Of a DNA stretch of 64,000 nucleotides, positions 27,625 through 43,802 are shown one piece after another (position 1 is the stretch's first letter; the number at the start of each line of letters is the position of its first letter). The notes beneath the pieces were generated by a model. That model did not search any database, was not told the origin of the DNA, and saw only the letters and a list, made by a program, of their open reading frames with translations. The position numbers and the translations under genes are program-made. Source of the DNA: Microgenomates group bacterium (GTDB lineage: Bacteria > Patescibacteriota > Microgenomatia > Daviesbacterales > UBA10151); the NCBI GenBank assembly GCA_041659805.1, contig JBAZXP010000001.1, positions 64,589 to 128,588 of the forward strand. Reading direction: 5' to 3'.

Positions 27625-27631
27625 ATGATAT

Positions 27632-27748
27632 TCCGGCAATGACATATTGTCCCGGGGCCTTTCGACCCTAGTATCGTCGGCGCTGCAATCTTTGACTGCT
27701 GAGTTCGGGATGGGATCAGGTCGTTCGGTTGCGCTCAAATCACCGGAC
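27632..27748 (-). rRNA. rrf: 5S ribosomal RNA
   Basis: Reverse complement reads TCCGGTGATTTGAGCGCAACCGAACGACCTGATCCCATCCCGAACTCAGCAGTCAAAG...AGCGCCGACGATACTAGGGTCGAAAGGCCCCGGGACAATATGTCATTGCCGGA. Conserved CCCATCCCGAACTCAG and AGCGCCGA.G.TACT blocks with helix I pairing. Confidence 0.8.
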
Positions 27749-27824
27749 ATCTATAATACCAAATTTTGCTCTAAGAATCAAGGATCTAGACATGCCAAAT
27801 CAAATTATATAAAATATCCTCCTA

Positions 27825-28142
27825 ATGCCGAATAAGGAAGTTTACAGCCCGCTACTTGATGCCGTTCTAAAACAAGTAGGAGCAATAGAAAATGACGTGA
27901 CATACTATGACTTCTATGATAATAGTATCCATGGGCGTGGGGAAAAAAAATTACTCAGTCTTGATCTTCCGTCAGGAGACATGCTTTTAGTATACTATCC
28001 ACCAGCATATTACGGTGCCAGTCTGGTTGGGAAAGACCCCATACTTTATTATCCCACTAAACTTGCTGACCAAATTCATGCAACAATAGCCAGTGTTGAT
28101 AAAGAACACGAGTTTTCCGCCCGAAGATACGACTTCTATTAA
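27825..28142 (+). CDS. hypothetical protein
   Basis: 105-aa ORF with a Tyr-rich composition and no motif. Confidence 0.3.
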   Translation: MPNKEVYSPLLDAVLKQVGAIENDVTYYDFYDNSIHGRGEKKLLSLDLPSGDMLLVYYPPAYYGASLVGKDPILYYPTKLADQIHATIASVDKEHEFSARRYDFY

Positions 28143-28147
28143 TTAGA

Positions 28148-29245: not shown

Positions 29246-29278
29246 TAATATTATATTAGCAAAAAGTACAGGTTTAGG

Positions 29279-30037: not shown

Positions 30038-30050
30038 ATATTATAGGGTA

Positions 30051-30512
30051 TTATCTTTGGCGGCGAGGATATCGTTGACTGGCGAGTAGCCAAACGCAAT
30101 AACCAGCCATAGCAGTCATAAATCCGAAAATACCAAAATACCCGAAAGCTTGCGCCTTCAATGCCCAGGGCTTTAAATATGTTTCGTTATATAAAACATT
30201 ATAAGCTTTCCTTTGATCTAATATTTGATATGACTTACTCAATTCATCCCCTCTTGCCCTTGCTGCCTCCCTCATCTGTTGTTCGTAATTATCTACCAAA
30301 ACAGAAGCCCTCTGAACTATTTCATCAGAAATAGGTGGAATTTGTGCCTCAATTGCTTGCCTTGCCTGACTATCATCTCCTCTGGATAATTTATAGAGTT
30401 CCGACATTCCCCATCCCCCGCCAAACAAGCCAGTTACCATTATCCCTGCTCCAATAGTCCTGGCAACTTTTTGTTTTAAAGTAAAATCAGGTAAAGTTCT
30501 TTCTGCACCCAT
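30051..30512 (-). CDS. hypothetical membrane protein
   Basis: 153-aa ORF with N- and C-terminal hydrophobic segments. Confidence 0.35.
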   Translation of the reverse strand: MGAERTLPDFTLKQKVARTIGAGIMVTGLFGGGWGMSELYKLSRGDDSQARQAIEAQIPPISDEIVQRASVLVDNYEQQMREAARARGDELSKSYQILDQRKAYNVLYNETYLKPWALKAQAFGYFGIFGFMTAMAGYCVWLLASQRYPRRQR

Positions 30513-31011
30513 AATCTGTGAATTATAGGACTTTGATGATATTTTGTCAACCTATAGTGAATTTAGGAGAAATATTTTATTTGTACTTCAAAATGTGAAT
30601 ACGACTTGGGTTAAAGGCTTTTAGCCAAAAAATCTCAACGATGACCATTAGTACTCTTAAGCTAAACACCTTACGATGCTTACACTGAGAGCCTATCAAC
30701 CCGGTAGTCTTCCGGGGGTCTTAAAGATTCCTAATCTCAGGATCTGCTTCGTGCTTAGATGCTTTCAGCACTTATCAGGAAAGAACGTAGCTACCCGGCG
30801 CTGCCATTTTGTGACAACCGGCACACTAGAGGTTCCCTCGTCTCGGTCCTCTCGTACTAGAGACAACTTCCCTCAAGAATCAAAACGCCCATACTGGATA
30901 GAGTCCAACCTGTCTCGCGACGGTTTGAACCCAGCTCGCGTACCACTTTAACTGGCGAACAGCCAGACCCTTGGGACCTTCTACAGCCCCAGGATGTGAT
31001 GAGCCGACATC

Positions 31012-31455
31012 GCTGTCTATTTGTCTATAATTACTTATAGGATCAGACTATACCTTCATCCAAATCGGTATATCAGAAAATCAGAGAATCAGCAGATCAG
31101 AAATATCTGAATCGCCGACTCGCCGAAACACTGACAAACTGAACTGGAGCTAGCCTTTTATTCAAGTTTCCTTCCGGATTATCCGGGACCTTGAATCCCT
31201 CCGATGTTACATCGGAGAAGTCGTTACGGGGCCAAATCCAGAAAATCAGAAGAATCAGAAAATCAGAAGAATCAGAAATTTCACTTTCCGATGTTCCGAT
31301 ATTCAGATTTTCAGATATTCCAAACCTAGTTTCCCTCGGTATTATCCTCACATTACTGTCAGGACTTCACCGATTTTAGCTAGTATTTTTTGTTCAAAAA
31401 GATTTCTAATTGTTATAACAGTGCTACAGAATTACTCCTGCCGCACCCCAATGTT
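31012..31455 (-). mobile_element. ORF-less ~440-bp insertion (putative group I intron or intervening sequence) in 23S rRNA at a position equivalent to E. coli ~2499/2500
   Basis: The conserved GGCACCTC|GATGTCGGCTCATCAC is interrupted here: the exons read GGCACCTC ... [insert] ... GATGTCGGCTC. The insert contains AATCAGAA(G/A) microsatellite repeats and no long ORF. Confidence 0.6.
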
Positions 31456-31496
31456 GAGGTGCCGAACGATACCGTCCTTGTGGACTGTTGGGTATC

Positions 31497-31530
<34 letters not shown>

Positions 31531-31842
31531 ATAAGCCTACTCCCTCCCACGAGGTAAGTAGGGATCACTAAAGCCTGCTTTCGCACCTGCTCGACTTGTA
31601 AGTCTTGCAGTCAAGCACACTGTATACTTTTGCGCTTAAATCTCCGTTGCCATTGGAGATAAGTGTACCTTTGCACTCCTCCGTTACTTTTTTGGAGGAA
31701 ACCGCCCCAGTTAAACTGCCCGCCAGACCTTGTTACGGTGCCAGATAATGGCTACCGCTAGAGATTTAAAAATCTAAAAAAGAGGTGTTTCATTGTCGCC
31801 TAAGCTCCCTCCTACTCTACATAAATAAATTTTCAAACCAGG

Positions 31843-31880
<38 letters not shown>

Positions 31881-31981
31881 AAGTATGGGAAGGCCGCATC
31901 TTCACAGCCACTGCAATTTCGCCGAGTCTATCCTCAAGACAGTTCCTAAGTCGTTCTACCTTTCGTGCGGGTCTGAACTCC

Positions 31982-32383
31982 ATTTTAAAACTGTCATTCT
32001 AAAATGAATATACGCACAACTTTACAGTCGTGGTATCTTCTTCTTCAAGCCTTCGGCTTGTAGAATAAATTTTAGAAGTCTTACATTTGTTTTTATGATT
32101 TAATGATTTTTAAATCCTCTACATCGCTATAGAGATCGGACTATATCTTGCCCCGATTGCTCGGGACTCCAACGTGTAGTCTCTGAGGGTTCCCTTACGG
32201 GCCTTCCCTGCTGATTGACTCCACTGATAGATTGTCACTCTTACGAGTACTATCAGATACTGAGTTATTCCAGCATATAGTTGGATTTTCACTACTTAAG
32301 GTTTTTTGCATACTAATCTAGCAATTTTCAACGAATTCCCGAGTGTTGTACATTGCTGTACATTCTAGCAAGTTTGTTTCCGC
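31982..32383 (-). mobile_element. ORF-less ~400-bp AT-rich insertion (putative group I intron or IVS) in 23S rRNA at a position equivalent to E. coli ~1917
   Basis: Exon sequence CCTTGTCTGGTAGGT...[insert]...GGAGTTCAGACCCGCACGAAAGG corresponds to E. coli CCTTGTCGGGTAAGT|TCCGACCTGCACGAATGG. The intervening ~400 nt has no rRNA homology. Confidence 0.55.
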
Positions 32384-33290
32384 ACCTACCAGACAAGGAA
32401 TTTCGCTACCATAGAACAGTTATAGTTACTGCTGCCGTTCACCAGATCTTAGACCCCTTCCTCGTCCCAAAATTACTTCTGGGAGTCAAGAGAGATTTTA
32501 AATTACTGGCACTGGGCAGGTGTCAGCCCCTATACATCAGCTTTCGCTTTAGCAGGGACCTGTGTTTTTGCTAAACAGTCGCTCAGGATCATTAACTGCG
32601 TCCCACATTGCTGCGGGAAGGACATCTTGCAAACTTACGTCCAGCTTTTGTTGCCGAGTTCCTTAAGGATAGTTCTCTCGATCGCCTGTGTATACTCAAC
32701 TCGCCCACCTGTGTCGGTTTGTGGTACGGCTTGATACTGTCCCCTTTACGAAACTTTTCCTGAAAACAGAATATCATTCACTTACGTATTCGTAACTCGA
32801 ATATGCATTCTGACAAGTCTTGCGACTAATCAGAACGTCCTGACTTGCGTCAGGCTGAGAACGGATTTTGCCTATTCTCACTTCCTTGTCACTTAAACCC
32901 CCATATAGAGGGCTAAATTAATCCCATTTTGTCCTTCCGTAAAGTATGCACGAACAGCACATATACCCGAATTTTGACGGGTATTCCATCGACTACGCCA
33001 TTTGGCCTCGTCTAAGGTACCGATTAACCCTGATCTGATTAACATTGATCAGGAAACCTTGGGCATTCGGCGTTAATGTTTTTCACATTAATTTCGCTAC
33101 TCATACCGGCATTCTCACTTCTATGCGCTCCACCCTGCCTCACGACAAAACTTCACTGCACATAAAACGCTCCCCTACCACGCAACTGATAAATCTCAGT
33201 TGCATCCGTAGCTTCGGTAGAACTTTTAGCCCCGGTTCGTTGTCGGCGCGAAATCCCGTAGTAGACCAGCGAGCTGTTACGCTTTCTTTA

Positions 33291-33327
<37 letters not shown>

Positions 33328-33893
33328 AAGGAATTTCACATCCTTTAACACTTAAAGTTCATTTAGGGACCTTAGCTGTCGGTCTGGGTTGTTTCCCTCA
33401 GGACCGCTCCGCTTAGCCGGATCGGACTGACTCCTGTTACACACGTTAGTATTCGGAGTTTGATTGGATTGACAGTCTTACGACCATCAGATCCATCCAG
33501 TGCTCTACCCCTAACGTGATTGCGCAGGGCTATACCTCAATATATTTCGGGGAGAACCAGCTATCTCCGAGTTCGATAGGCATATCACCTCTAACCACAC
33601 CTCATCCTAGACTATTGATACAGTCACAAGTTCGGGCCTTCCCCGCCTTTTACAGCAGGTTCACCCTGGACATGGTTAGCTCACTCGGTTTCGGGTCTGC
33701 CATATTCTCCTAAATCGCCCGGTTAGGGCTCGCTTTCACTACGCCTACAAACATTACTGTTCTTAGACTTGGAGAATAAGACAACTCACCGGTTCATTCT
33801 TCAAAAGGCACACGGTTCCCTGAATTAAATTCAGGGTTCCGCAGCTTGACAACATACGGTTTCAGGTACTATTTCACTGAGCGTTCCGCTCTT

Positions 33894-33933
<40 letters not shown>

Positions 33934-34735
33934 CGAAAGTATATTTAGCCTTAACAAGTGGTCTTGCTAGCTTCACCCAGGATTACACGTGTCCTAGGTT
34001 ACTCAGGAGTCCGACCACGGCAGTCCAGATTTCGCTTACAGGGCTATCACCCTCTTTGGCATTCCTTTCCAGGAATTTCAGCTATCCGTTCTACTCGCTA
34101 CTGTCGGTCCTACAACCCCACGGGTTTCAAGTATTGCTACCTGAAGTGATCTGTGGTTTGGGCTTTTCCCTTTTCGCTCGCCACTACTAGGGGAATAAAC
34201 TATTGTTCTCTTTTCCTGCGCTTACTTAGATGTTTCAGTTCAGCGCGTACCCCTCCCGACGTTATGAATTGGCGTCGGGATAATTATCGATTAAGATAAT
34301 TGGATTATTCCATTCGGAAACCTCTGGATCATAGCTTCTTAGCAGCTTCCCAGAGACTATCGCGGCTTAGTGCGTCCTTCTTCGGTACTTTCGACCAAGG
34401 CATCCACCGTATGCATTATTGTTGAGTATCTTTTGGCTTGTATTTCAGTTAGTCAGAGTTTCAGAGGATCAGCAAATCAGAAAATTCTGACTCGCCGATT
34501 CGCCGATCTTGCCGACCTGCTGAATAATTTGGCCTTCTTCCCAAAATAGGTTACAGGTTTTAGGTTACAGGTTACAGAATTCTTGCGTTTCCTGTTCACT
34601 GTAAACTGTCCCCTGTTCACTATTTTATAAATCGTATTCACATTTCAAAGTGCAAAAATCCAGATTATCTGGAACTCAGAATACCGGAAGTTAATTCCGA
34701 TGCTCTGAGTTAACAGATCATCCAAACTGTCCCCT

Positions 34736-34811
34736 TGGTGGACCCAAGGAGGATCGAACTCCTGACCTCCTCATTGCAAATGAGGCGCTCTACCAACTGA
34801 GCCATGGGCCC
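34736..34811 (-). tRNA. tRNA-Ala (anticodon TGC), CCA encoded
   Basis: Reverse complement GGGCCCATGGCTCAGTTGGTAGAGCGCCTCATTTGCAATGAGGAGGTCAGGAGTTCGATCCTCCTTGGGTCCACCA forms a cloverleaf with anticodon loop TTTGCAA. It lies upstream of the 23S in the same orientation. Confidence 0.85.
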
Positions 34812-35060
34812 TGGCTACTACTCTCTGGTCCCATGTCTCGCGCTTACGCACTGATCCATGGGCCCGACTCATTTATATTCAAATTTAAAATGTATAATGT
34901 AAAATTGATAATTAAAAAATTCTACATTCTAAATTATCAATTACAAAGAGGGATACAACGCTAAATGTGTCTTGCTTCCTCGCACCAAGGAAGTCTTGAA
35001 GCGAGTGTTAAATTAATGGTGCGTTGGTTCTCATGTATTAACTTTTGAATTTTATCAAAG

Positions 35061-36335
35061 TTAGCTAGCCTTGTCAACCTCAGGTTGAAGCTGATTTTCT
35101 TCTTGATCCAAAGACTGAATATATCTGGCAGCATACATTCTTTCAGCCATCTTTTTCCAATCCCTTAATGGTTCTGACATCAATAAAAACATGGTTCTAT
35201 CAAAAGTAAAACCTGCATCCCGTAAATAACAAATAGCCTCCATTGAATCAACTAATAATTGATCATATTCAGTGACAAATACTTTTTCAATCACTCTTTT
35301 AACCATATTCTCCCTTTTTACTCCTGTATGTTTTTTGAACGATTCAACACAATCTTTAGCCACCTTTTGTCTCCATTCGCCAGGAAAGCAATTATATCTT
35401 TTATTTTTTTTGAAAAGTCTAAAAATATCCGAACTGTCATCAATATTTATACTTCCAATCCTTAAATATGCTAAAATCTCCTCTCTGGAATCATTTTCTC
35501 CCTCCTGTCTTTCTTTTCTTAACATTCTTGTGAGTAAAAGTTCTTGTGTTGGCAAGTCCTTTTTACATTTAACTAATGAATCAGGAAGGTCATCAATAGG
35601 AATTGCGTTTGCAAGTTTATGTAGATACAAAGGAACGATTAAAGATCCGTCTTCCAGACTCTGATATCCGTTTTCCAGATAATTGGCATATGAACTCTGA
35701 AAAAAATAATTCAAAGCATGCTGCTCCTCATGCGTCCGGTACGAAATCATCTCCGCTTCACTTTCCAAATCTACATTTTCCACAATTATTGAACCCTCCA
35801 AATTTGGATCATTAAACAACTCATATCCGAGAAACATTCCACCGGTTCCAGAAGCTTCCCTTAATAAAGAACGATTCATGGAAAAATTGTTGCTTTGCAT
35901 TTCCCTGTTCGTCAACAAAGCATAATCATGGAGATCATGACACACAAAATTAAAAGTAATAGGCCTTAAATCAATAATCACTTTTCCCTGAGGCTCGATA
36001 CCACAAACAGCTTTAAAAAGCTGATTATCACAAGGATATGCTTCTCGAACCTCTTTCATCCGTTGGCGCCGACTAATATATCTTCCGATCGTATAATTAG
36101 TCAAACCAATCTGTTCATCATCCATTCCGATTAGTTCTATATATTCATCGGCTAAGCTAAAAAGTTTTTCTGGGTCCAAGTCAGGATCTTCATAAACCAC
36201 CCCTACCAAATGCTCCATCATTGAAGCTACTCCTTCTTTTCTTTCGGCATAGCCCATTAGATTTTGTCTGAATAGTGAAGTATTTTCTGCGTTCATGACT
36301 ATGGGATTATAGGAATATTTTAAAAATTTTGTCAA
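35061..36335 (-). CDS. hypothetical protein containing an HExxH motif (HEEQH)
   Basis: 424-aa ORF with no recognisable family. A possible zincin-like HEEQH motif sits at about aa 200. Separated from the upstream ORF by 8 nt, suggesting an operon. Confidence 0.4.
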   Translation of the reverse strand: MTKFLKYSYNPIVMNAENTSLFRQNLMGYAERKEGVASMMEHLVGVVYEDPDLDPEKLFSLADEYIELIGMDDEQIGLTNYTIGRYISRRQRMKEVREAYPCDNQLFKAVCGIEPQGKVIIDLRPITFNFVCHDLHDYALLTNREMQSNNFSMNRSLLREASGTGGMFLGYELFNDPNLEGSIIVENVDLESEAEMISYRTHEEQHALNYFFQSSYANYLENGYQSLEDGSLIVPLYLHKLANAIPIDDLPDSLVKCKKDLPTQELLLTRMLRKERQEGENDSREEILAYLRIGSINIDDSSDIFRLFKKNKRYNCFPGEWRQKVAKDCVESFKKHTGVKRENMVKRVIEKVFVTEYDQLLVDSMEAICYLRDAGFTFDRTMFLLMSEPLRDWKKMAERMYAARYIQSLDQEENQLQPEVDKAS

Positions 36336-36342
36336 TGCGCAA

Positions 36343-36699
36343 TCAAACTGGAGGCATCTGTCTCGTATTTAATAGTCTGTAAGCTTCCTCACCGAAATTT
36401 AAATTAATCCCTTTTAATGCAGCCAACATTGAGGTAGCCCCACAAACCTTATTACGCACGAAAATCCCGTTTTCAGAATCGTTTTCTATCTGAACGTAAG
36501 CTGAAAAAGGCGGCGCGCCGACTTCTGTATTTTTCCTGACTATTACCCTGTGCAAATTTCCGCCATATGGAAAAATTAAATCAGGATTTTGAGTCAGAGC
36601 ATCCAGAATTTCCGGTGTCATAGAGTATCCCGGTAAATAGCTGCTGTCTTCTGTTTGTCTTATTTGTTGCTCACACATAGGGGTAATATGCCACATCAA
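36343..36699 (-). CDS. hypothetical protein
   Basis: 118-aa ORF immediately upstream of 35061..36335 on the same strand. Confidence 0.35.
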   Translation of the reverse strand: MMWHITPMCEQQIRQTEDSSYLPGYSMTPEILDALTQNPDLIFPYGGNLHRVIVRKNTEVGAPPFSAYVQIENDSENGIFVRNKVCGATSMLAALKGINLNFGEEAYRLLNTRQMPPV

Positions 36700-36762
36700 G
36701 CCTCAGAGGTCAATTTTTTAAACATTTTTGATAAATTTTATACATTATGTTAAATTTCTAAC

Positions 36763-37413
36763 ATGATTACAGTTCCTGAAATAGTAGAAGAAATGATAAA
36801 GCAGACTCCTTTTTTAGAGGAAGGCCTTTCATTAGGAATTATTGACCTTTCTTCTCTTGCCAGAAAGTTTCAACCCGAAATTCAAAAAAAGCTTTATAAA
36901 GATATTCAAATAGGCGCAATTGTTATGGCTTTAAAAAGATTAAGTTCTACTCTTAAAATTAAACAACAGAAATCTAATCCTCTTTTTGCTGGATTAGATA
37001 ATATGACTGTACGTTCTAATTTAATTGAATATAGTTTTGAAAACTCCCCTACTTTGTCTGAAAAGGAAATAGAACTACTCTCGTGCGTTGATAAAGAAAA
37101 AGATGGGTTTTTAACTTTTACTCATGGAGTATTTGAAACCACTCTTATTATTAGCTCTATATTCACTAAAGAAGTTGAAAGAATTTACAAAGGTGAAACC
37201 CTTCGCTTAAAACTAAATAATCTTTCTGCTATAACCTTAATTTTACCAAAAGAGGCACTTAACCAACCTGGTGTTTATTACACAGTATTAAAAACCTTAG
37301 CTTGGGAGGGAATCAACGTGATTGAAGGTATTTCAAGTTTTACAGAGTTAACTCTAACTTTTGAAAACAGTCAAGTGGATAAAGCTTTTTCAGCTCTCAA
37401 AAAACTCTCTTAA
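36763..37413 (+). CDS. hypothetical protein, possibly ACT-domain-like
   Basis: 216-aa ORF. The C-terminal LSAITLILPKEALNQPGVYYTVLKTLAWEGINVIEGISS resembles an ACT regulatory fold. Tentative. Confidence 0.35.
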   Translation: MITVPEIVEEMIKQTPFLEEGLSLGIIDLSSLARKFQPEIQKKLYKDIQIGAIVMALKRLSSTLKIKQQKSNPLFAGLDNMTVRSNLIEYSFENSPTLSEKEIELLSCVDKEKDGFLTFTHGVFETTLIISSIFTKEVERIYKGETLRLKLNNLSAITLILPKEALNQPGVYYTVLKTLAWEGINVIEGISSFTELTLTFENSQVDKAFSALKKLS

Positions 37414-38433
37414 TTATTTAGCAGAAATATTAAGAATCTGTTCAACTAATCTATTAGAATACCCAAATTCATTGTCATACCAGGCAAAGACTTTAACTAA
37501 ATCCCCATCAACCACTTGAGTTAAAGATAAATCAATTATGGCTGATTCACTCCTACCAATAATATCAGATGAAACAAGTGGTTCTTCACTCCAGGTAGCA
37601 ATATTTTTCCATCTTGGTGTTTCACAGGCGTCTTTTATGGCTTGATTTAGCTCTTCTACAGTTGTTTTAGTTTTCAAAAGAAAGGTAAAATCAACAATTG
37701 AACCTAAAATAACAGGCACACGAATGGCTACCCCATCAAATAAACCTTTGAGTTCTGGAATAACTTCTGTGGTAGAAATTGCTGCACCAGTGGTGGTAGG
37801 AATAATATTAGAGTAGGCAGCGCGAGCCCGGCGCAAATCATTACTTTTCCCTCCCGGAGGAGGTCCGTCAACCAAATTTTGTTCTGCAGTTACTGCATGA
37901 GTGGTGGTCATCAAAGCTTTTAGGATTCCAAATTTATCATGCAGAATAGCTGCCACAGGAGCCACACAATTAGTGGTACATGAGGCATTATTTATCATTT
38001 GCTCACCCTGATATTTATCTTGATTTACCCCCATTAAAAATGTTCCGACATTACCACCTTTACCTGGGGCTGATAAAATTACCTTTTTTGCCCCTGCTAA
38101 AATGTGTTGCTGCAGGTCTTCCTCTTTTGTAAATCTGCCAGTACATTCTAAAACCACATCAACCCCTAAAGTACCCCATGGGAGGTTTGCAGGGATCTTT
38201 TCTGCCAAGATTGGGTATTTTTTGTTATCAATAATGATATTTTGGGCTTCTGCAAAGACCTCTTTACCCCATCTACCATAGGCAGAATCATGTTGGAGAA
38301 GGTGAGCTAAAACAGGGGCTTCTGTTAAATCATTAATAGCAATCACATCAATTTGATCACTATATTTTTCCACAATAATTTTAAATGCAGCTCTTCCAAT
38401 TCTTCCAAATCCATTCACAGCAACTTTTATCAT
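37414..38433 (-). CDS. gap: glyceraldehyde-3-phosphate dehydrogenase
   Basis: MIKVAVNGFGRIGR Rossmann N-terminus. Catalytic ASCTTNCVAP(V) motif. 339 aa. Confidence 0.9.
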   Translation of the reverse strand: MIKVAVNGFGRIGRAAFKIIVEKYSDQIDVIAINDLTEAPVLAHLLQHDSAYGRWGKEVFAEAQNIIIDNKKYPILAEKIPANLPWGTLGVDVVLECTGRFTKEEDLQQHILAGAKKVILSAPGKGGNVGTFLMGVNQDKYQGEQMINNASCTTNCVAPVAAILHDKFGILKALMTTTHAVTAEQNLVDGPPPGGKSNDLRRARAAYSNIIPTTTGAAISTTEVIPELKGLFDGVAIRVPVILGSIVDFTFLLKTKTTVEELNQAIKDACETPRWKNIATWSEEPLVSSDIIGRSESAIIDLSLTQVVDGDLVKVFAWYDNEFGYSNRLVEQILNISAK

Positions 38434-38505
38434 AATTTTAGTATAACGAAAATTACAGGATCTCGCTACCAGCGAGTAGCCCTATATAGGTTTAGATTAG
38501 CATAA

Positions 38506-39474
38506 TCACTTTAAGGCTTCAATCGTTGGGAGTGTTCCTGTTTCCAAAAACTTCAGCATTGCCCCACCCCCTGTTGAAACGAAAGAAATTTTTGATAAAT
38601 CTTTTAATTTATTCAGGTAAGCAATTGTATCCCCTCCTCCAATAATACTTTTAGCATCTGAGGCAATAACTGCTTCTGCTATCATCCCGGTCTGGTTATT
38701 TTTAGAATCTTCTATTTTACCCAAAGGCCCATTCCATAAAATCATTTTGGCAGAAGATATAATAGGAACCCATTTGCTAACTGTTTCAGCTGTAATATCT
38801 TCCTGATCAACTGTTAAATCAGCCAAAATCAGATTCTCAGGCAAATCAGTTCTTTTTTTAAGCTCTGCAATAATTTTCCCACCTACTAAAACCTGATCAG
38901 CCACTTTAGATAAAGCCAGAGCAGCAGGTAATTTATCATCTACCTTTAACCCTCCAATAATTACCACTAGTGGTTTTTCAGGATTTTCCCTTACTTCTGT
39001 TAAAGTTTCTATTTCTTTGGCAAATTGTAACCCAGCAGCATGAGGTAAAAGCATGGGTAAAATCGTGGTTGATGCTGCCTTGTGATGGGAAGCAAAAGCA
39101 TCATTGACATAAAAATTGCCTAAAGCAGCCAACTCTTTGGCATAATAAACACTCGCTTCTTCTTCCCCTTTTTCAAACCTTAAATTCTCCAGTAATTGTA
39201 ATTTACCACTATCTAATTCATCACCAAATCCATGTTCCACCAACCAATTAAAAATAGGAGCAACTGATAGTTCTTCTACTTTCTTACCATTTGGCCTACC
39301 AATGTGCCCCATAACAATAACTTTTGCAGCCGACTCCAAACAAAGTTCAAGAGTGGGCATTCCGGCAACCAACCTAAAATCATCAACTACCCTACCATCT
39401 TCTATTGGGACGTCGATATCTAAACGGAGTAAAACTTTTTTACCTTTTATTAAGGGGGCAGAAACAACTTGCAT
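38506..39474 (-). CDS. pgk: phosphoglycerate kinase (short form)
   Basis: N-terminal RLDIDVP...D..R.....PT......GA.V....H.GRP.G pattern (LRLDIDVPIEDGRVVDDFRLVAGMPTLELCLESAAKVIVMGHIGRPNGK). Glycine-rich C-terminal domain GGGDT / STGGGA. Confidence 0.75.
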   Translation of the reverse strand: MQVVSAPLIKGKKVLLRLDIDVPIEDGRVVDDFRLVAGMPTLELCLESAAKVIVMGHIGRPNGKKVEELSVAPIFNWLVEHGFGDELDSGKLQLLENLRFEKGEEEASVYYAKELAALGNFYVNDAFASHHKAASTTILPMLLPHAAGLQFAKEIETLTEVRENPEKPLVVIIGGLKVDDKLPAALALSKVADQVLVGGKIIAELKKRTDLPENLILADLTVDQEDITAETVSKWVPIISSAKMILWNGPLGKIEDSKNNQTGMIAEAVIASDAKSIIGGGDTIAYLNKLKDLSKISFVSTGGGAMLKFLETGTLPTIEALK

Positions 39475-39638
39475 ATATAAATCCTAACATAATTGTCGAT
39501 GTTAGTGAAAAATGTTATACTTACCCTCAGTTTTGGGCACGTAGTTCACTGGGAAGGCAGAAACTTTGTTTTCTGCCTTGCGATCCCGATTTATCGGGAT
39601 CTAATGAACGCTTTATTGATTTTGAAAGCATTGTAAAA

Positions 39639-39710
39639 GGGCCGGTAGTTCACTGGTAGAACGCTTCACTGATAATGAAGAAGTAGATGGTTCGATTCCA
39701 TCCCGGCCCA
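39639..39710 (+). tRNA. tRNA-Ile (anticodon GAT)
   Basis: GGGCCGGTAGTTCACTGGTAGAACGCTTCACTGATAATGAAGAAGTAGATGGTTCGATTCCATCCCGGCCCA folds as a cloverleaf: acceptor GGGCCGG/CCGGCCC, anticodon stem CTTCA/TGAAG, loop CTGATAA. Confidence 0.8.
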
Positions 39711-39756
39711 CAGATGCTTTCAAAATATCAAAAATTTAGTAAAAAATTTTTGAATA

Positions 39757-39797
39757 TAATGAAGAAGTAGATGGTTCGATTCCATCCGTGCCCACTT
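39757..39797 (+). repeat. partial direct repeat of the 3' half of tRNA-Ile (att-like scar)
   Basis: ATAATGAAGAAGTAGATGGTTCGATTCCATCC is identical to the tRNA 3' half over 32 nt, then diverges (gtgcccac vs cggcccac). Located 46 bp downstream of the intact tRNA. Confidence 0.7.
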
Positions 39798-39868
39798 AAT
39801 CCCTTTTTTCCTTTTGGCGAGATGGCGAATCAGCATAACGCGGTCGTCTGCAAAACGACTATTGGCGG

Positions 39869-40663
39869 GTGCAACTCCCGCTCTCGCCTCACAATAGATA
39901 TCTTGATTTTCGTCTTTTGTTTGGGTACTCTTATTTTATGCACCCTACTGCCCTTAAAGATTCTCGAGGAGGACATAACCACGCTCAGATAAACCAAGAT
40001 TTCTTTAAAACATGGTCCCCTGCCATGTCTTATATCTTAGGTTTTATTTTTGCAGATGGTGCCATCGAAGATGTACAAAAATCTTCCAGAACATACTACA
40101 TATCAATAACTAGCAAAGATCTATCCATTTTAAATAGTATTAAAAAGTTTATGAGTTCCACACATAAATTATATACAAAGCCTCTTCAAAAAATACTTTA
40201 TCCTGGGGGCAAATATTATATTTCTAGCGAACGATTCGTTCTAAGAATTGGAAGTAAAAATATGTATAACGATTTATTGAAACTTGGAGTCACCCCAAGA
40301 AAATCACTTAGTATTAAATTTCCAATTGTTCCAACCGAATATTTATCTTTTTTTATAAGAGGTTATTTCGATGGAGACGGGTGTCTACACCTTCTCAAAG
40401 GAATATATCCAAGATTGATATTTACGTCTGGAAGTAATCAATTTTTTGAAGGGTTATCGGCAACTCTATCTCAAACTTTACAAATACCTATTAAATCAGC
40501 TTATCAGCAACTACAGCAAAGCAATAATTTTTGTTACCGCCTACATTACAATACGAAAATTAGTCATCTAATTTTAGAGTATATGTATAGAGATTTAGAA
40601 AAAGCCCCATTTTTAGATAGAAAGTATGTTATTTATCAGAAATATTTACAAACAAAAGAATAA
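39869..40663 (+). CDS. free-standing double-motif LAGLIDADG homing endonuclease
   Basis: Two LAGLIDADG-type motifs: ILGFIFADGAIED and FFIRGYFDGDGCLHL. About 240-264 aa; the true start may be at an internal Met. Confidence 0.65.
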   Translation: MQLPLSPHNRYLDFRLLFGYSYFMHPTALKDSRGGHNHAQINQDFFKTWSPAMSYILGFIFADGAIEDVQKSSRTYYISITSKDLSILNSIKKFMSSTHKLYTKPLQKILYPGGKYYISSERFVLRIGSKNMYNDLLKLGVTPRKSLSIKFPIVPTEYLSFFIRGYFDGDGCLHLLKGIYPRLIFTSGSNQFFEGLSATLSQTLQIPIKSAYQQLQQSNNFCYRLHYNTKISHLILEYMYRDLEKAPFLDRKYVIYQKYLQTKE

Positions 40664-40702
40664 TCTATATTTCGCCCGCACCTCTGAATTTTTCTTCAAA
40701 AT

Positions 40703-41029
40703 TTATTCTACTTTGGAATTAGGATCGTTTGGGTTGGGCACTTTATAAAGAGGATGTTCTTTTTCAGTTACATCAGGCCGTTTCCCAAACAACATCATTC
40801 CTAATTTACCTAATAACGACATTGTTTTTGTAGACTCTGGTGTAACAACTTCCGTATTTTCTTTTTTATGAGGGTCTATTCCTAATATACCTCTTTCAGT
40901 GTAAGGTGATCCTTTTTCGGGATAATCACCTTGTTTAAACCATTTCCCTAATATCCCTTCATCTTCGAGTATTTGCCCCTTCGGTTTTTCAACATTTTTT
41001 ATCTCCCCTATCTCAGTGTTGCTTTCCAT
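40703..41029 (-). CDS. hypothetical small protein
   Basis: 108-aa ORF in the region between the 16S 3' end and the LAGLIDADG gene. No motif. Confidence 0.3.
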   Translation of the reverse strand: MESNTEIGEIKNVEKPKGQILEDEGILGKWFKQGDYPEKGSPYTERGILGIDPHKKENTEVVTPESTKTMSLLGKLGMMLFGKRPDVTEKEHPLYKVPNPNDPNSKVE

Positions 41030-41419
41030 GTTTTCATCTTACACTATTTTAAAAAATCCATCAAAAAAACTCCCCGGAGGGAGCTTAAGAAAGACTATAG
41101 TCTTGAGCGAGTCAAGACGAGTCGAAAGATTTAATTCCAAAAAAGTGGTGGGGAGGGTTTTTAAAGAAGCCCTCAACTTCTATCACCATTTACCCTGAAT
41201 TTTGTTCAGAATAGCGTGAAGGTGATCTTGGATCAAACCATGGCTATCATCTCTTGCGAGTTTAATGAAATCCTCCAGCTTGACCTAATCTCCAGAAAGG
41301 AGGTGATCCATCCCCAGCTTCGGCTAGGGATACCTTGTTACGACTTAAGCTTCATCGCTGGTTTCACCTTCCTCCGTAATCACGGAGTTCGGGTGCCCCC
41401 AACTTTGCTGCCTTGACGG

Positions 41420-42292
41420 ATTGGAATAACTTAAGGTTGTTTTCCGTTCCCACCCGGCGAGCCGATTTCCGGCACCGGGCGAGCCCTAATGATGCATTAA
41501 TGCTTTTAAATTTCGAATCTTAGTTTCTCCCTCTAAAGTAAAGTGTTCTTTTTTAATGATCATTTTTGAAACTTGAGAAAAAATCTCAAAATCTCTTTTC
41601 TTCTTGGGACTAAGGAGTTGATGCTTATCAAAAAAATCAATCAATTTTAACTTATCTTCGTTCGAGTTTACCTCAAAACGATAACAAGATTGGTGATTTT
41701 TTCTCTTCTCTTTTTGATAATAAATAAAACCAAATCCTAAGTACTTTTTAATAGTTTCTAAAACTAATAAATCATCTTCACGAAGTTTTATATAAAAATG
41801 AGACTTCGCCATAATGTGTGCTTTTGGGTTTTTTGTTTTATCCCTCTCTGTTAAAAGAATATAAAAACATCCTTCTCCATCACTAAGACCAACTATATAG
41901 CTTGCATCTATCATTAGGTAGTTCCCTTCATCACCGCAGCGTAGTATTTTCAGTATAAACTGAACCTAAAACACTGTCAATAACTACTATGAAACTGCTG
42001 ACTTCCTACCAAGCAATTACCTTCTTCTTAGTAGGATCTCCATGGGTTATATATATCACTGTTCCAAACATTCCATTAAAGTTCTTAGACTAATTTGTTA
42101 AGTTTCTCTCAAACCGCCCGATGAGATCACTTATTAAAAGAACTCTTTTTAAAAATGGACTGTTTTTTGTCTCAGGCCCTCCAGCTAAATCAATTACTCA
42201 ATCTAGCCTGCCAATTTTTTTTGACTATCCACCATTGGTGGAGTAGGATTTTAACCTACTAGTTATATATACTGCCACGCGCGCATAAATTT
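41420..42292 (-). mobile_element. insertion (putative group I intron) in 16S rRNA at ~E. coli 1402/1403, carrying a LAGLIDADG homing endonuclease gene
   Basis: Exon junction reconstructs ...CTTGTACACACCGC|CCGTCAAGG... The interrupting ~870 nt contains ORF 41486..41914 in the same orientation as the rRNA. Confidence 0.65.
41486..41914 (-). CDS. single-motif LAGLIDADG homing endonuclease encoded inside the 16S insertion
   Basis: MIDASYIVGLSDGEGCFYIL is the LAGLIDADG motif (GFxDGEGCF type). 142 aa, typical of the I-CreI-like family. Confidence 0.75.
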   Translation of the reverse strand: MIDASYIVGLSDGEGCFYILLTERDKTKNPKAHIMAKSHFYIKLREDDLLVLETIKKYLGFGFIYYQKEKRKNHQSCYRFEVNSNEDKLKLIDFFDKHQLLSPKKKRDFEIFSQVSKMIIKKEHFTLEGETKIRNLKALMHH

Positions 42293-43576
42293 GCGGTGTG
42301 TACAAGAGGCGAGAACGTATTCACCGCGACCTGCTGATTCGCGATTACTAGCAATTCCGACTTCATGAGGTCGAATTTCAGACCTCAATCTGAACTGGGG
42401 CGAAATTTGAGAGATTAGCTTGCCGTTACCGACTTGCAACTCGTTGTTTTTCGCCATTGTAGGGTGTGTGTAGCCCAGGGTGTAAGAGCCGTGCTGACTT
42501 GACGTCATCCGCGCCTTCCTCCCCTCAAAGAGGGGCAGTTCCGCATGAATTATTTAACATACGGTGCGGGTTGCGCTCGTTATCCGACTTAACGGTACAG
42601 CTCACGCCACGAGCTGACGACAGCCATGCAGCATCTGTGCTAGTCTCCTTGCGGATTTTCCCAGTTTCTTGGGAATAGAACTCTAGCATGTCAAACCCTG
42701 GTGAGGTTTTTCGCTTTGTCTCGAATTAAACCACACGCTCCACTGCTTGTGCGCCTCCCCGTCAATTCCTTTGAGTTTTAAACTTGCGTTCGTACTCCCC
42801 AGGCGCTCTGCTTAACGCGTTAGCTTCGACACTGATCCGAAAGGACCAATATCTAGCAGAGATCGTTTACGGCTTGGACTACGCAGGTCTCTAATCTGCT
42901 TCGCTCCCCAAGCTTTCGTGCCTAAGCGTCAAGAATACACCAGATGTCTGACTACTCCTTCGGCGTTCCCGATCATATCAACACATTTCACTGCTCCATG
43001 ATCAGTTCCAACATCCTATTGTATCTTCCAGGCCGATCATATTTTGCCCGAAACCGTGGTTGAGCCACGGGCTTTCAAGCAAAATGCATCGGTCCGCCTA
43101 CGCAACACTTTACGCCCAATAAATCCGGATAACGCTTGCACCCTACGTATTACCGAGGCTTCTGGCACGTAGTTAGCAGGTGCTTATTCTTGTGGTACCG
43201 TCATAATCTTCCCACATAAAAGGAGTTTACAACCCGAGGGCCTTCAATCCTCCACGCGGCGTCGCTCGATCAGGCTTTCGCCCATTGTCGAATATTCCCA
43301 GTTGCTGCCACCCGTAGGTGTATGGGCCGTTCTCAGTCCCATTGTGGCTGACCATCCTCTCAGACCAGCTATCCGTCGTCGCCTTGGTAGGCCATTACCC
43401 CACCAACAAGCTGATAGAACGCGGGCTAATCTCAAAGCGCATTGCTGCTTTACTCTTACGAGCACATGGGAGATTACCCAACCTTTCGGCTGGCTATATC
43501 CCACTTCGAGGTATATTCCCACGCATTACTCACCCGTCCGCCGGTTATCTTGCGATCCCCTTGACTTGCATGCTTA

Positions 43577-43619
<43 letters not shown>

Positions 43620-43802
43620 AATAAAAGTGAATTTGTATCCAGCTCCACTAATAAATCAATGAAGCTTTCAACAAGCTTCACTCAAAGAATTGACAAAAGA
43701 TTATCTCAATAAATTGAGATTGCACTCTTGTTTATCGATTTACCTAGACTTGGTAAATCATTTTCCCACCACTTTTCCGGAATTAAACGCCTAAAAAGGC
43801 AT

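What the first reader, a model, noticed from the sequence alone, without database searches (positions are those of the whole stretch)
39639..40663. tRNA-Ile followed by a duplicated 3'-half and a free-standing double-motif LAGLIDADG gene: integration or inversion scar
An intact tRNA-Ile(GAT) lies on the strand opposite to the rRNAs. 46 bp downstream, 32 nt of its 3' half are repeated exactly (39757-39797). A double-motif LAGLIDADG endonuclease gene (FADGAI / FDGDGCL), not embedded in any recognisable intron, follows immediately. Partial tRNA 3'-end repeats are the usual signature of site-specific integration. Here the tRNA probably marks one end of a small inverted or integrated segment delivered by, or associated with, the homing endonuclease.
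Basis: partly seen in the sequence, partly recalled or inferred. Interest (0 to 1): 0.55.

Follow-up and report, generated by a model that had tools for sequence, protein, structure and literature searches.

The report
Transfer RNA gene nested inside another
The "duplicated half" is the tail of an older isoleucine tRNA gene that was split open by an insertion carrying a complete working copy of the same tRNA, a Russian-doll layout that recurs in related ultra-small bacteria and, in some of them, travels with a selfish nuclease gene.

Summary
A tRNA-Cys lies between the repeat and the LAGLIDADG gene. An 18-nt tRNA 5' fragment (39535-39552) lies upstream, and its acceptor strand GGGCACG pairs with the CGTGCCC of the repeat.

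Together they form an outer tRNA-Ile gene "A" (39535-39794). A is interrupted by a two-hairpin insertion in its D-loop. It is also interrupted by an insertion in its anticodon loop that carries the intact inner tRNA-Ile "B" (39639-39710).

The same nest occurs in a second species (L103). Twelve of the first 20 tRNA-Ile(GAT) contexts examined in related Microgenomates have such an outer 5' fragment, and outer acceptor halves covary. In five further lineages an 80-aa GIY-YIG nuclease ORF sits between the outer 5' copy and the inner tRNA, and its stop codon is tRNA positions 8-10.

I read the window locus as a nuclease-less relic of tRNA-replacing insertion. The LAGLIDADG gene did not deliver it. 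That family is linked to tRNA-Cys in 90 of 92 CPR loci, and relatives keep the same gene order without any repeat.

The architecture is well supported. The mechanism is inferred.

The parts
39493..39521 (+). Promoter-like site (TTGTCG, 17 nt, TATACT, with TG) 13 nt upstream of the outer tRNA 5' end. It is the presumed promoter for the whole nest.
   Evidence: In all 12 nested loci a -10-like hexamer lies 3-16 nt upstream of the OUTER 5' fragment, not of the inner tRNA.
39535..39552 (+). Outer tRNA-Ile 'A', 5' segment: acceptor 5' strand GGGCACG, U8 A9, D-stem 5' strand GTTC, and the start of the D-loop.
   Evidence: 16 of 18 positions identical to B (family D2). GGGCACG is complementary to CGTGCCC at 39787-39793. 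The same acceptor occurs in intact tRNA-Ile genes of L005, L121 and L127.
39553..39603 (+). Insertion of about 51 nt in the D-loop of A, forming two hairpins (39556-39577 and 39582-39601). The boundaries are ambiguous by 2 nt.
   Evidence: It is unique within the window. Hairpin 2 is identical in L103. Analogous two-hairpin D-loop insertions occur in the outer copies of L014 and L005.
39606..39620 (+). Outer A, middle segment: D-stem 3' strand GAAC, G26, anticodon-stem 5' strand CTTTA, and loop TTGAT up to the GAT anticodon.
   Evidence: Read. It differs from B only at C30T and C32T. It is identical in L103.
39619..39638 (+). 5' side of the anticodon-loop insertion: helix arm ATTTTGAAAGCAT (39619-39631) plus a variable linker.
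   Evidence: There is a perfect 13-bp inverted repeat with 39714-39726. It is paired in the MFE structure. The linker differs in L103 while the arm is identical.
39639..39710 (+). Inner intact tRNA-Ile(GAT) 'B', acceptor GGGCCGG/CCGGCCC. This is the presumed functional gene.
   Evidence: It is identical in L103 and stands alone, not nested, in L163. It is nearly identical to the GIY-YIG-linked tRNA-Ile of L176.
39712..39755 (+). 3' side of the insertion: helix arm ATGCTTTCAAAAT (39714-39726) and an A/U hairpin (39729-39752).
   Evidence: In L103 the hairpin stem is kept or extended and its loop is changed.
39756..39794 (+).
   Evidence: Covariation of outer acceptor halves across lineages.
It is the conserved partner of the LAGLIDADG gene.
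   Evidence: It is identical in L009. Linkage holds in 90 of 92 loci.
39903..39931 (+). Promoter-like element of the LAGLIDADG gene (TTGATT, 17 nt, TACTCT), conserved including its spacer in Microgenomates relatives.
   Evidence: Read from the sequences (TTGACTTTTCG..TTTGGGTA..AT in most loci). The simple consensus scan did not list it.
39938..40663 (+). Free-standing two-domain LAGLIDADG gene, 241 aa.
   Evidence: AlphaFold pLDDT 91.2. Best folds: bI3 maturase, I-AniI, I-SceI, I-DmoI.

Best explanation
The locus is a nested tRNA-Ile(GAU) gene.

1. An older resident gene A (39535-39794) sits at the ancestral position, directly downstream of the promoter and 21 nt upstream of tRNA-Cys. It was opened in its anticodon loop by an insertion of about 135 nt that brought a complete tRNA-Ile(GAU) gene, B, of a different allele. 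B differs from A by two compensatory base pairs in the acceptor stem.
2. B has no promoter of its own. It is transcribed from A's promoter, presumably cut out of the precursor by the ordinary tRNA end-processing enzymes, and serves as the cell's tRNA-Ile(GAU).
3. A, which also carries a two-hairpin insertion in its D-loop, is left as 5' and 3' shells.
4. The generating process is most likely a homing-type or DNA-break-repair replacement. Related Microgenomates have cassettes with this layout: promoter, partial tRNA-Ile 5' copy, 80-aa GIY-YIG nuclease ORF, intact tRNA-Ile, and in some cases a partial 3' copy.
5. In those cassettes the tRNA-derived repeats can act as homology arms for any tRNA-Ile locus, and the carried tRNA replaces the gene that is destroyed. 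The window copy has no nuclease gene. It either lost it or was made in trans.

Shown: the architecture, its recurrence, the covariation of the outer halves, and the nuclease association in relatives.
Inferred: transcription and processing, loss of function of A, and the homing mechanism.

The neighbouring LAGLIDADG gene belongs to a separate, CPR-wide partnership with tRNA-Cys. It is not the cause of the nest.
For: - Complementary halves in the window. GGGCACG (39535-39541) pairs with CGTGCCC (39787-39793), whereas B has GGGCCGG/CCGGCCC.
- The 5' part of A runs to the GAT anticodon and the 3' part starts in the anticodon loop, so the two abut.
- The nested cloverleaf is the MFE fold, z = -8.7. 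L103 gives the same fold, z = -7.4.
- Position. The promoter lies upstream of A, not of B. The 3' end of A lies 21 nt before tRNA-Cys (39795-39815). Relatives have the simple tRNA-Ile 11-23 nt before tRNA-Cys (14 nt in L010 and L012).
- Second species. The L103 nest is 95% identical, while pgk 4-fold sites are only 54.5% identical.
- Recurrence. 12 of 20 distinct tRNA-Ile(GAT) contexts have an orphan 5' tRNA fragment upstream. Five also have a matching 3' acceptor strand downstream.
- Control. All 15 orphan fragments that have a tRNA within 400 nt downstream precede tRNA-Ile(GAT).
- Outer acceptor covariation. 90.5% of cells are paired, 4 of 7 pairs change on both sides, 0 of 500 shuffles reach the score, and slid controls give 20-52%.
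- Allele swapping. The A type is inner in L121, L127 and L154. The B type is outer in L098, L101 and L139 and stands alone in L163.
- Decay of outer copies. L101 and L139 are truncated. The halves of L106 and L116 no longer pair.
- Nuclease link. A GIY-YIG ORF lies between the outer 5' copy and the inner tRNA in L127, L165, L169, L170 and L176, and its stop codon is tRNA nt 8-10. The tRNA-Ile of L176 equals B except for one acceptor pair and one T-loop base.
Against: - No nuclease gene or remnant is present in the window nest or in the other nuclease-less nests.
- The inserts of different lineages share little sequence, so a single mobile family is not shown.
- The nuclease-bearing cassettes have a different outer shell: the anticodon arm is replaced by the hairpin GTCGCC-TRA-GGCGAC and the ORF sits in the T-loop. 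They are therefore an analogue of the window nest, not demonstrably its parent.
- Between the window and L103, the 12 differences among about 169 non-B positions all fall in hairpin 1, the linker and the A/U hairpin. None fall in the outer tRNA-like segments, the 13-bp helix arms or hairpin 2. This suggests constraint on the shell rather than neutral decay.
- No empty-site and filled-site pair at the same locus was found.
- No cleavage or RNA data exist.
Confidence: 0.6

Rival explanations
1. The outer shell is a functional RNA scaffold. Its stems are kept by selection, for example to guide processing of the precursor, or because A is itself matured into a second tRNA-Ile by removal of the loop insertions. 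That would be analogous to the insertion sequences removed from CPR rRNAs.
For: - All insertions in A sit in loops (D, anticodon, and in L103 the T-loop), and every stem is intact.
- The non-B parts of the nest are 93% identical between the window and L103, against 54.5% at pgk 4-fold sites. Conservation starts at G1 of A and ends at its 3' end.
- Differences fall only in linkers and loops. The A/U hairpin stem is kept or extended in L103.
- The outer copy of L121 has perfect acceptor, D and T stems.
- The hairpin of the L169 outer copy covaries: GTTGCC/GGCAAC against GTCGCC/GGCGAC.
Against: - Many outer copies are clearly broken. L101 and L139 lack most of the 3' half, L014 has no 3' half, and the halves of L106, L116 and L127 do not pair.
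- No group I intron was detected by Rfam. No bulge-helix-bulge motif is seen in the predicted folds.
- Close relatives manage with a plain tRNA-Ile gene.
- The high identity could equally result from recent lateral transfer limited to the homologous tRNA sequence.
Confidence: 0.17
2. Purely local origin. tRNA-Ile underwent tandem duplications (three copies), followed by deletion of the 3' part of the first copy and the 5' part of the third. No mobile element or nuclease was involved.
For: - A and B are nearly identical outside the acceptor stem.
- The window tRNA-Ala has an internally deleted pseudo-copy in tandem just upstream (34826-34865, minus strand), so local tRNA duplication does happen in this genome.
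Against: - The two fragments abut at the same point, the anticodon loop, in the window, L103, L098 and L106. Independent truncations would not be expected to do that.
- The spacers flanking B are unrelated to those flanking A, so no duplicated spacer is seen.
- A and B alleles both exist separately in other organisms: intact A as the inner copy in L121, B standing alone in L163.
- In several nests the inner and outer copies are strongly divergent alleles (L098, L121, L139, L169).
Confidence: 0.15
3. The 3'-half repeat is an attachment-site scar of a site-specific integration, or marks the end of an inverted segment, delivered by or with the LAGLIDADG endonuclease.
For: - Partial tRNA 3' repeats are typical of integrase-mediated integration (established knowledge).
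- The tRNA genes next to this LAGLIDADG gene change strand between relatives (L002, L005, L014, L103).
- L028 and L031 carry a 23-31-nt copy of the tRNA-Cys 3' part on the far side of the LAGLIDADG ORF.
Against: - Only 44 nt separate the tRNA and the repeat, and there is no integrase.
- The repeat has a complementary 5' partner upstream, which the att model does not predict.
- Relatives have the same gene order without a repeat.
- The LAGLIDADG gene is linked to tRNA-Cys, not tRNA-Ile, across the CPR.
Confidence: 0.04

Closest known systems
Phage T4 SegB, a free-standing GIY-YIG homing endonuclease in the T4 tRNA gene cluster (PMC2330249; see also PMC13096335)
   Same: - A GIY-YIG nuclease gene embedded among tRNA genes.
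- It promotes preferential inheritance of itself and flanking tRNA genes by cutting the tRNA region of genomes that lack it.
- No intron is involved.
   Different: - SegB lies between tRNA genes and does not split one.
- No tRNA is nested in another, and no ORF ends inside a tRNA.
- The CPR nuclease is an 80-aa minimal protein. The window nest has no nuclease at all.
Integrative elements that target tRNA genes and duplicate the tRNA 3' part, including the archaeal tRNA-Thr fragment plus recombinase element (PMC3293823)
   Same: - A tRNA gene is the target.
- The element carries tRNA sequence so that a working gene persists.
- A displaced fragment remains as a scar.
   Different: - Those elements are kilobases long and encode an integrase.
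- They duplicate only part of the tRNA and leave a single fragment.
- Here the insert is about 135 nt, carries a whole tRNA, sits in the anticodon loop, and both halves of the old gene remain.
Group I introns in bacterial tRNA anticodon loops (tRNA-Leu UAA of cyanobacteria, tRNA-Ile CAU of Azoarcus; from my own knowledge)
   Same: An intervening sequence of about 200 nt lies in the anticodon loop of a bacterial tRNA gene.
   Different: - There is no group I core (Rfam).
- The intervening sequence contains a complete tRNA.
- The interrupted gene has further loop insertions and is decayed in many lineages.
Archaeal multi-intron, split and permuted tRNA genes (PMC3218864, PMC4033280)
   Same: tRNA genes are interrupted at several loop positions, including the D-loop and T-loop.
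   Different: - Those genes depend on bulge-helix-bulge motifs and a splicing endonuclease.
- They restore the interrupted tRNA.
- None is reported with a complete tRNA of the same identity inside.
Insertion sequences in CPR rRNA genes, often encoding LAGLIDADG nucleases (PMC11270868)
   Same: - Same organisms.
- Insertions sit at loop positions of a structured RNA gene, and many have no ORF.
- The window itself has one in 16S and a group I intron in 23S.
   Different: - That work covers rRNA only; 'tRNA' does not occur in its text.
- rRNA function is kept by removal or fragmentation, not by carrying a replacement gene.
Endonuclease ORFs in fungal mitochondria that insert at the end of a host gene and bring a replacement copy of the displaced segment (Allomyces atp6; from my own knowledge), and 'fractured genes' (PMC2677866)
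   Same: A self-complementing insertion: the mobile ORF carries host-gene sequence that keeps the gene working, and the displaced native piece stays as a pseudogene.
   Different: - Those cases involve protein-coding hosts and replace only part of the gene.
- Here the whole RNA gene is replaced and nested.

Membership tests
Integrase-type integration into a tRNA gene (att repeat) | The direct repeat of the tRNA 3' part bounds an element that encodes an integrase or recombinase. | tested here: not met
   44 nt lie between the tRNA and the repeat. No ORF with an integrase domain is nearby.
Integrase-type integration into a tRNA gene (att repeat) | The displaced fragment is a lone 3' piece without a matching 5' partner. 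| tested here: not met
   A complementary 5' fragment lies at 39535-39552. The halves covary across lineages.
Group I intron in a tRNA anticodon loop | The intervening sequence lies in the anticodon loop. | tested here: met
   The 5' part of A ends at TTGAT (39620). The 3' part resumes within the anticodon loop, at 39756-39758 depending on how the 2-nt overlap is assigned.
Group I intron in a tRNA anticodon loop | A catalytic group I core is present. | tested here: not met
   Rfam E-value scans of 39450-39950 and of 8 nest loci find no Intron_gpI in the nests.
Archaeal-type tRNA introns and split tRNAs | A bulge-helix-bulge motif lies at each exon-intron junction. | tested here: inconclusive
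   Predicted folds show continuous helices and three-way junctions, with no 3-4-3 bulge-helix-bulge. No dedicated motif search was run.
Archaeal-type tRNA introns and split tRNAs | The genome encodes a splicing endonuclease and a ligase. | not tested
   Only 64 kb of the genome is available.
Free-standing homing-endonuclease cassette (SegB-like) | A nuclease gene lies inside or next to the mobile segment. | tested here: not met
   There is none in the window nest (tblastn; profile search). The feature is met in related loci L127, L165, L169, L170 and L176.
Free-standing homing-endonuclease cassette (SegB-like) | The nuclease cuts alleles that lack the cassette, and the cassette is copied by repair. 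| not testable with these tools
   This needs cleavage assays and crosses or population data.
Free-standing homing-endonuclease cassette (SegB-like) | The cassette shows lateral spread, being more similar between genomes than the host genes are. | tested here: inconclusive
   The nest is 93-95% identical between the window and L103, against 54.5% at pgk 4-fold sites. GIY-YIG proteins are 75-84% identical across many Microgenomates. Constraint could give the same pattern.
LAGLIDADG homing endonuclease (the 241-aa ORF) | Two LAGLIDADG motifs are present, each with a conserved acidic residue. | tested here: met
   D40 and D147 are invariant in 45 sequences. ADG and RGYFDGDGC are conserved in at least 80% of 110 sequences.
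LAGLIDADG homing endonuclease (the 241-aa ORF) | The protein has the two-domain alpha-beta-beta-alpha-beta-beta-alpha fold. | tested here: met
   AlphaFold pLDDT 91.2. Foldseek gives probability 1.0 to bI3 maturase, I-AniI, I-SceI and I-DmoI, with TM 0.50-0.55.
LAGLIDADG homing endonuclease (the 241-aa ORF) | The gene resides in an intron or intein, or has a sporadic distribution typical of a selfish element. | tested here: not met
   It is free-standing. 390 stretches encoding a relative were found among GTDB species representatives. tRNA-Cys is adjacent in 90 of 92 loci. Identity falls with taxonomic distance.
LAGLIDADG homing endonuclease (the 241-aa ORF) | The protein has site-specific DNA cleavage activity. 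| not testable with these tools
   This needs biochemistry.
Canonical bacterial tRNA gene | An uninterrupted cloverleaf is recognised by tRNA models. | tested here: met
   Met for B. Not met for A: ARAGORN fails even in intron mode. A is called tRNA-Ile(GAT) only after both insertions are removed by hand.

The most novel reading that the evidence does not exclude
CPR bacteria carry an undescribed class of self-complementing homing cassettes aimed at tRNA genes. The parts are:

- a small nuclease gene: GIY-YIG for tRNA-Ile, the 241-aa LAGLIDADG for tRNA-Cys;
- an ORF that ends inside a replacement tRNA gene. The stop codon is tRNA nt 8-10 for the GIY-YIG ORF. The LAGLIDADG stop lies mostly 18-23 nt inside tRNA-Cys in Parcubacteria;
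- for the GIY-YIG/tRNA-Ile cassettes, flanking partial copies of the target tRNA that can serve as portable homology arms. For the LAGLIDADG/tRNA-Cys pair only L028 and L031 show a partial tRNA-Cys copy.

Repeated invasion gives Russian-doll tRNA genes. The window holds both halves of the story: a nuclease-less nested tRNA-Ile, and next to it the LAGLIDADG/tRNA-Cys pair.

A further twist that is not excluded: the outer shells are kept by selection as RNA scaffolds.
Probability: 0.4. Interest if true: 0.8.

Novelty: new variant of a known kind. Interest (0 to 1): 0.66.

Why it matters
- **A third way for a selfish insertion to spare its host.** Introns and inteins splice themselves out. Here the insertion would instead bring a spare copy of the gene it destroys.
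- **Unexplained sequence in CPR genomes.** The model would account for orphan tRNA fragments, for tRNA genes that flip strand in place, and for broken rRNA-tRNA operons.
- **Annotation.** Standard tRNA finders miss the outer genes altogether.
- **Control of nuclease expression.** If the nuclease ORF ends inside the tRNA, cutting the tRNA out of the transcript would remove the stop codon from the nuclease message. That would be a simple way to keep a selfish nuclease at a low level.
- **Testability.** The strict LAGLIDADG/tRNA-Cys and GIY-YIG/tRNA-Ile pairings give concrete, testable target predictions for two nuclease families in organisms that cannot yet be cultured.

Tried and rejected
- ARAGORN with anticodon-loop introns of up to 400 nt and lowered thresholds did not call the outer gene, because of the D-loop insertion.
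- Rfam E-value scans found no ribozyme, intron or other family in the inserts.
- The two D-loop hairpins and the helix arm have no other copies in the 64-kb window, so no repeated small element is evident.
- L001 turned out to be the same genome (99.97% identity) and gave no comparison.
- The GTDB scan did not contain the window's own genome.
- The exact 23-mer of the window tRNA-Cys found nothing in metagenome contigs.
- The tRNA-Ile 22-mer found nothing in viral contigs.
- The closest LAGLIDADG relative, L009 (85% identity), ends 69 nt upstream of tRNA-Cys. It only shows that tRNA-Ile is not adjacent there. L103 later showed that this lineage has the nest on the other side.
- A six-frame profile search found no GIY-YIG remnant in nuclease-less nests.
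- Partial tRNA-Cys copies around the LAGLIDADG gene were found only in L028 and L031, and not in the window.
- I considered a tmRNA-like reading and rejected it: the acceptor has G3-C70, not G3-U70, and ARAGORN makes no tmRNA call.
- I rejected an assembly artefact because two assemblies and a second species show the nest.
- The literature searches that bear on this found no description of nested bacterial tRNA genes or of tRNA-linked nucleases in the CPR. The library is limited to open-access text.
Full report
**Context**

The window comes from a CPR bacterium. The exact LAGLIDADG protein is named in NCBI as from a 'Microgenomates group bacterium' on a 1.13-Mb contig.

The rRNA genes lie on the minus strand and are not contiguous:
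- 16S at about 43625 to 41295, with an insertion of about 870 nt that carries a single-motif LAGLIDADG ORF;
- tRNA-Ala at 34736-34811;
- 23S at 30629-34429, with a group I intron;
- 5S at 27631-27747.

Between 16S and tRNA-Ala lie the LAGLIDADG gene of the finding, tRNA-Cys, tRNA-Ile, pgk, gap and several unknown ORFs.

**The observation**

tRNA-Ile(GAT) at 39639-39711 on the + strand is solid. Its 3' part is repeated at 39756-39795 with 38/40 identity, and 32 nt are exact. The 241-aa two-motif LAGLIDADG ORF is 39938-40663.

Two things were missed.
- tRNA-Cys(GCA) at 39816-39890 separates the repeat from the ORF.
- 104 nt upstream of the intact tRNA lies GGGCACGTAGTTCACTGG (39535-39552). This is a copy of the first 18 nt of the tRNA with two changes.

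Those two changes (GGGCACG against GGGCCGG) are exactly complementary to the two changes in the downstream repeat (CGTGCCC against CCGGCCC). The upstream and downstream fragments therefore belong to one tRNA, which I call A. The intact tRNA is B.

**Anatomy**

Reading A against B, the segments in order are:
1. acceptor 5' strand, U8 A9, D-stem GTTC and ACTGG (39535-39552);
2. an insertion of about 51 nt made of two hairpins (39553-39603);
3. GAAC, G26, anticodon stem CTTTA and loop TTGAT (39606-39620);
4. an insertion of about 135 nt. It consists of a helix arm, a linker, the whole of B, CAG, the complementary helix arm (a perfect 13-bp inverted repeat) and an A/U hairpin;
5. the rest of the anticodon loop, TGAAG, the variable loop, the T-arm, CGTGCCC and the discriminator A (39756-39794).

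Outside the acceptor stem, A differs from B only at C30T (which still pairs as U-G) and C32T. The minimum-energy fold of 39525-39800 is this nested cloverleaf: -102.6 kcal/mol, z = -8.7.

A sigma-70-like promoter ends 13 nt before A. B has none of its own.

ARAGORN cannot see A, even in intron mode. Rfam finds no intron or ribozyme in the inserts.

**A is the old resident gene**

In relatives found through the LAGLIDADG protein (L003, L006, L010, L012), a plain tRNA-Ile(GAT) lies a short distance downstream of a -10 element and 11-23 nt upstream of tRNA-Cys. A occupies exactly that position.

The acceptor of A (GGGCACG/CGTGCCC) is that of intact tRNA-Ile genes in L005, L121, L127 and others. 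The inner tRNA of L121 is what A would be without its insertions and its two substitutions. B occurs unnested in L163.

**The nest is not a one-off**

A metagenome scan for the 5' motif returned L103, a contig with two hits 103 nt apart. L103 carries the same nest: 1232-1475 is 95.1% identical to the window. Yet the organism is different. Its pgk protein is 85% identical and pgk 4-fold degenerate sites are only 54.5% identical.

- In L103 tRNA-Cys lies on the other side of the nest and on the other strand.
- The T-loop of A carries an extra insertion of about 59 nt.
- L103 folds into the same nested structure, z = -7.4.

Other lineages show the same plan with other alleles.
- Of 20 distinct intact tRNA-Ile(GAT) contexts held at that stage, 12 have an unannotated tRNA 5' fragment 40-288 nt upstream on the same strand.
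- In most of these the fragment breaks off inside the anticodon loop. In every case it is preceded by the -10 element.
- Five also have a 3' acceptor strand downstream that matches it. The pairs are GGGCACG/CGTGCCC, GGGCGCA/TGCGCCC, and GGGCCGG/CCAGCCC with one mismatch.

With the nuclease-bearing loci added, a formal count on six distinct outer acceptor pairs gave these results:
- 90.5% of cells paired;
- 4 of 7 pairs changed on both sides;
- 0 of 500 shuffles reaching the covariation score;
- 20-52% pairing when the partner strand is slid.

As a control, every orphan fragment that has a tRNA within 400 nt downstream precedes tRNA-Ile(GAT).

**Relic or scaffold?**

Many outer copies are plainly decayed.
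- L101 and L139 lack most of the 3' half.
- L014 has no 3' half.
- In L106, L116 and L127 the two halves no longer pair.
- L106 and L116, which share promoter and downstream flanks, have fast-diverging shells around an identical inner tRNA.

Allele types swap roles. The A type is outer in the window and inner in L121, L127 and L154. The B type is inner in the window and outer in L098, L101 and L139. This fits repeated replacement better than one ancient event.

Against simple decay, the window and L103 shells are far more alike than neutral sites.
- There are 12 differences in about 169 non-B positions.
- All 12 lie in hairpin 1, the 8-nt linker and the A/U hairpin.
- Similarity starts at G1 of A and stops at its 3' end.

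This means either constraint on the shell, or recent lateral transfer limited to the only sequence shared between different loci, the tRNA itself. I cannot decide between these two.

Two-hairpin D-loop insertions recur in the outer copies of L014 and L005. T-loop insertions recur in L103, L098 and L121. The preference for loops is unexplained.

**The nuclease link**

In L127 the 288 nt between the outer 5' fragment and the inner tRNA encode a GIY-YIG protein.

Its family has 255 homologues, all Pfam PF01541. The close ones are 80 aa long and 75-84% identical across Microgenomates. 44 of the 120 listed homologues end in [LIMV]-G-x, most often ..I-L-G-x, and another 10 end in ..ILDR or ..IMDR.

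Contexts L165-L176 show a constant design:
1. a promoter;
2. a tRNA-Ile-like 5' copy, in which the anticodon arm is replaced by the hairpin GTCGCC-TRA-GGCGAC and which runs into the T-loop;
3. the ATG of the ORF;
4. an ORF ending TTG GGN NNN TAG, which is nt 1-10 of a tRNA-Ile sequence. That sequence is the intact tRNA-Ile(GAT) in L127, L165, L170 and L176. In L169 it is a partial second copy that precedes the intact gene. The stop codon is U8 A9 G10;
5. in L165, L169 and L127, a 3' copy whose acceptor strand pairs with the 5' copy.

The carried tRNAs are A-like (L127, L165) or B-like. The tRNA of L176 equals B except for one acceptor pair and one T-loop base.

A cassette with tRNA-derived repeats on both sides of the nuclease gene could recombine into any tRNA-Ile locus and would replace the gene it breaks. 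This is my inference, not a shown mechanism.

The window nest has no nuclease gene or remnant, and its shell is of a different kind. The link is therefore by analogy and by shared alleles.

**The LAGLIDADG gene**

- It has more than 1000 homologues.
- 390 stretches encoding a relative were found among GTDB species representatives all over the CPR.
- Both catalytic aspartates are invariant.
- The model is a confident two-domain LAGLIDADG fold, closest to bI3 maturase, I-AniI, I-SceI and I-DmoI.

In 90 of 92 loci a tRNA-Cys(GCA) gene lies within about 90 nt. The two exceptions sit at contig ends.
- In Microgenomates tRNA-Cys lies upstream of a conserved promoter-like element.
- In Parcubacteria it lies downstream and the ORF runs into it. 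The stop codon is 18 nt inside the tRNA in 17 loci and 21-23 nt inside in 14 loci.

This is the same ORF-into-tRNA design as the GIY-YIG/tRNA-Ile pair. The LAGLIDADG gene is therefore an old partner of tRNA-Cys, not the vehicle of the tRNA-Ile repeat.

**Comparison with what is known**

The nearest analogues are:
- T4 SegB in the phage tRNA cluster (PMC2330249);
- tRNA-targeting integrative elements and the archaeal tRNA-Thr fragment case (PMC3293823);
- group I introns in bacterial tRNA anticodon loops;
- archaeal multi-intron and split tRNAs (PMC3218864);
- CPR rRNA insertion sequences (PMC11270868);
- mitochondrial endonuclease ORFs that bring a replacement piece of the host gene.

None of these has a complete tRNA nested in the anticodon loop of a tRNA of the same identity. 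My searches of the held literature found no such description.

**Verdict**

- The architecture is well supported.
- The homing-type origin is the most likely mechanism but is inferred.
- The apparent conservation of the shell remains unexplained.

Noticed in passing
window 39816-40663; loci L002-L093: The 241-aa LAGLIDADG family is found across the CPR and is next to tRNA-Cys(GCA) in 90 of 92 loci. In Parcubacteria-type loci the ORF runs into the tRNA, with the stop codon mostly 18-23 nt inside it.
   Followed up: partly
L127 3202-3453(-); L165, L169, L170 1501-1743; L176 233-475: An 80-aa GIY-YIG ORF is wedged between a partial tRNA-Ile 5' copy and a tRNA-Ile sequence (the intact gene in four of the five; a partial second copy in L169). 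Its stop codon TAG is tRNA positions 8-10, so removal of the tRNA from the transcript would leave a message without a stop codon.
   Followed up: partly
window 34826-34865 (-): An internally deleted pseudo-tRNA-Ala (GGGCCCATGGATCAGTGCGTAAGCGCGAGACATGGGACCA) lies in tandem just upstream of the intact tRNA-Ala (34736-34811). A -10-like TATAAA precedes the pseudo-copy, not the intact gene.
   Followed up: partly
window about 41420-42292 (-): The 16S rRNA gene has an insertion of about 870 nt after ..TTGTACACACCGC (E. coli position about 1400). It carries a single-motif LAGLIDADG ORF (41486-41914). The Rfam hit stops at 42234, but the true 3' end (GGATCACCTCCTTTCT) is near 41295.
   Followed up: partly
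window 41130-41152 and 43765-43787: A 23-nt inverted repeat, 91% complementary, brackets the whole 16S gene including its insertion. It is probably the processing stem of the precursor.
   Followed up: no
window 30629-34429 (-): The 23S gene spans 3801 nt for a 2925-position model. It has a group I intron at 32117-32376, so more inserted sequence must be present.
   Followed up: no
window 27631-43625: The rRNA operon is dispersed. pgk, gap and four unknown ORFs lie between 16S and tRNA-Ala/23S. Wzy_C and fibronectin-III ORFs lie between 23S and 5S.
   Followed up: partly
window 39903-39931; same position in L002-L050: The promoter-like element in front of the LAGLIDADG gene has a conserved spacer (TTGACTTTTCG..TTTGGGTA..AT) across Microgenomates. 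It could be a binding or target site of the protein.
   Followed up: no
L103 about 1475-1535: The outer tRNA-Ile of L103 has an extra insertion of about 59 nt in its T-loop that the window lacks. T-loop insertions also occur in the outer copies of L098 and L121, and in L103 and L098 they end in ..CCTATT.
   Followed up: partly
L028 3716-3746; L031 3719-3741: An exact 31-nt (L028) or 23-nt (L031) copy of the tRNA-Cys 3' part lies just downstream of the LAGLIDADG ORF. The full tRNA-Cys lies upstream on the other strand, so inverted tRNA-Cys sequence flanks the gene.
   Followed up: partly
L002, L005, L014, L019, L028, L031, L035, L037, L045: Single tRNA genes (Ile or Cys) sit at the same position as in relatives but on the opposite strand. 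They appear to have been flipped or replaced in place.
   Followed up: no
window 1-64000: GC skew is negative over most of the window. This is reminiscent of the one-directional skew reported for the Microgenomates genome Ch65 (PMC7143001).
   Followed up: no
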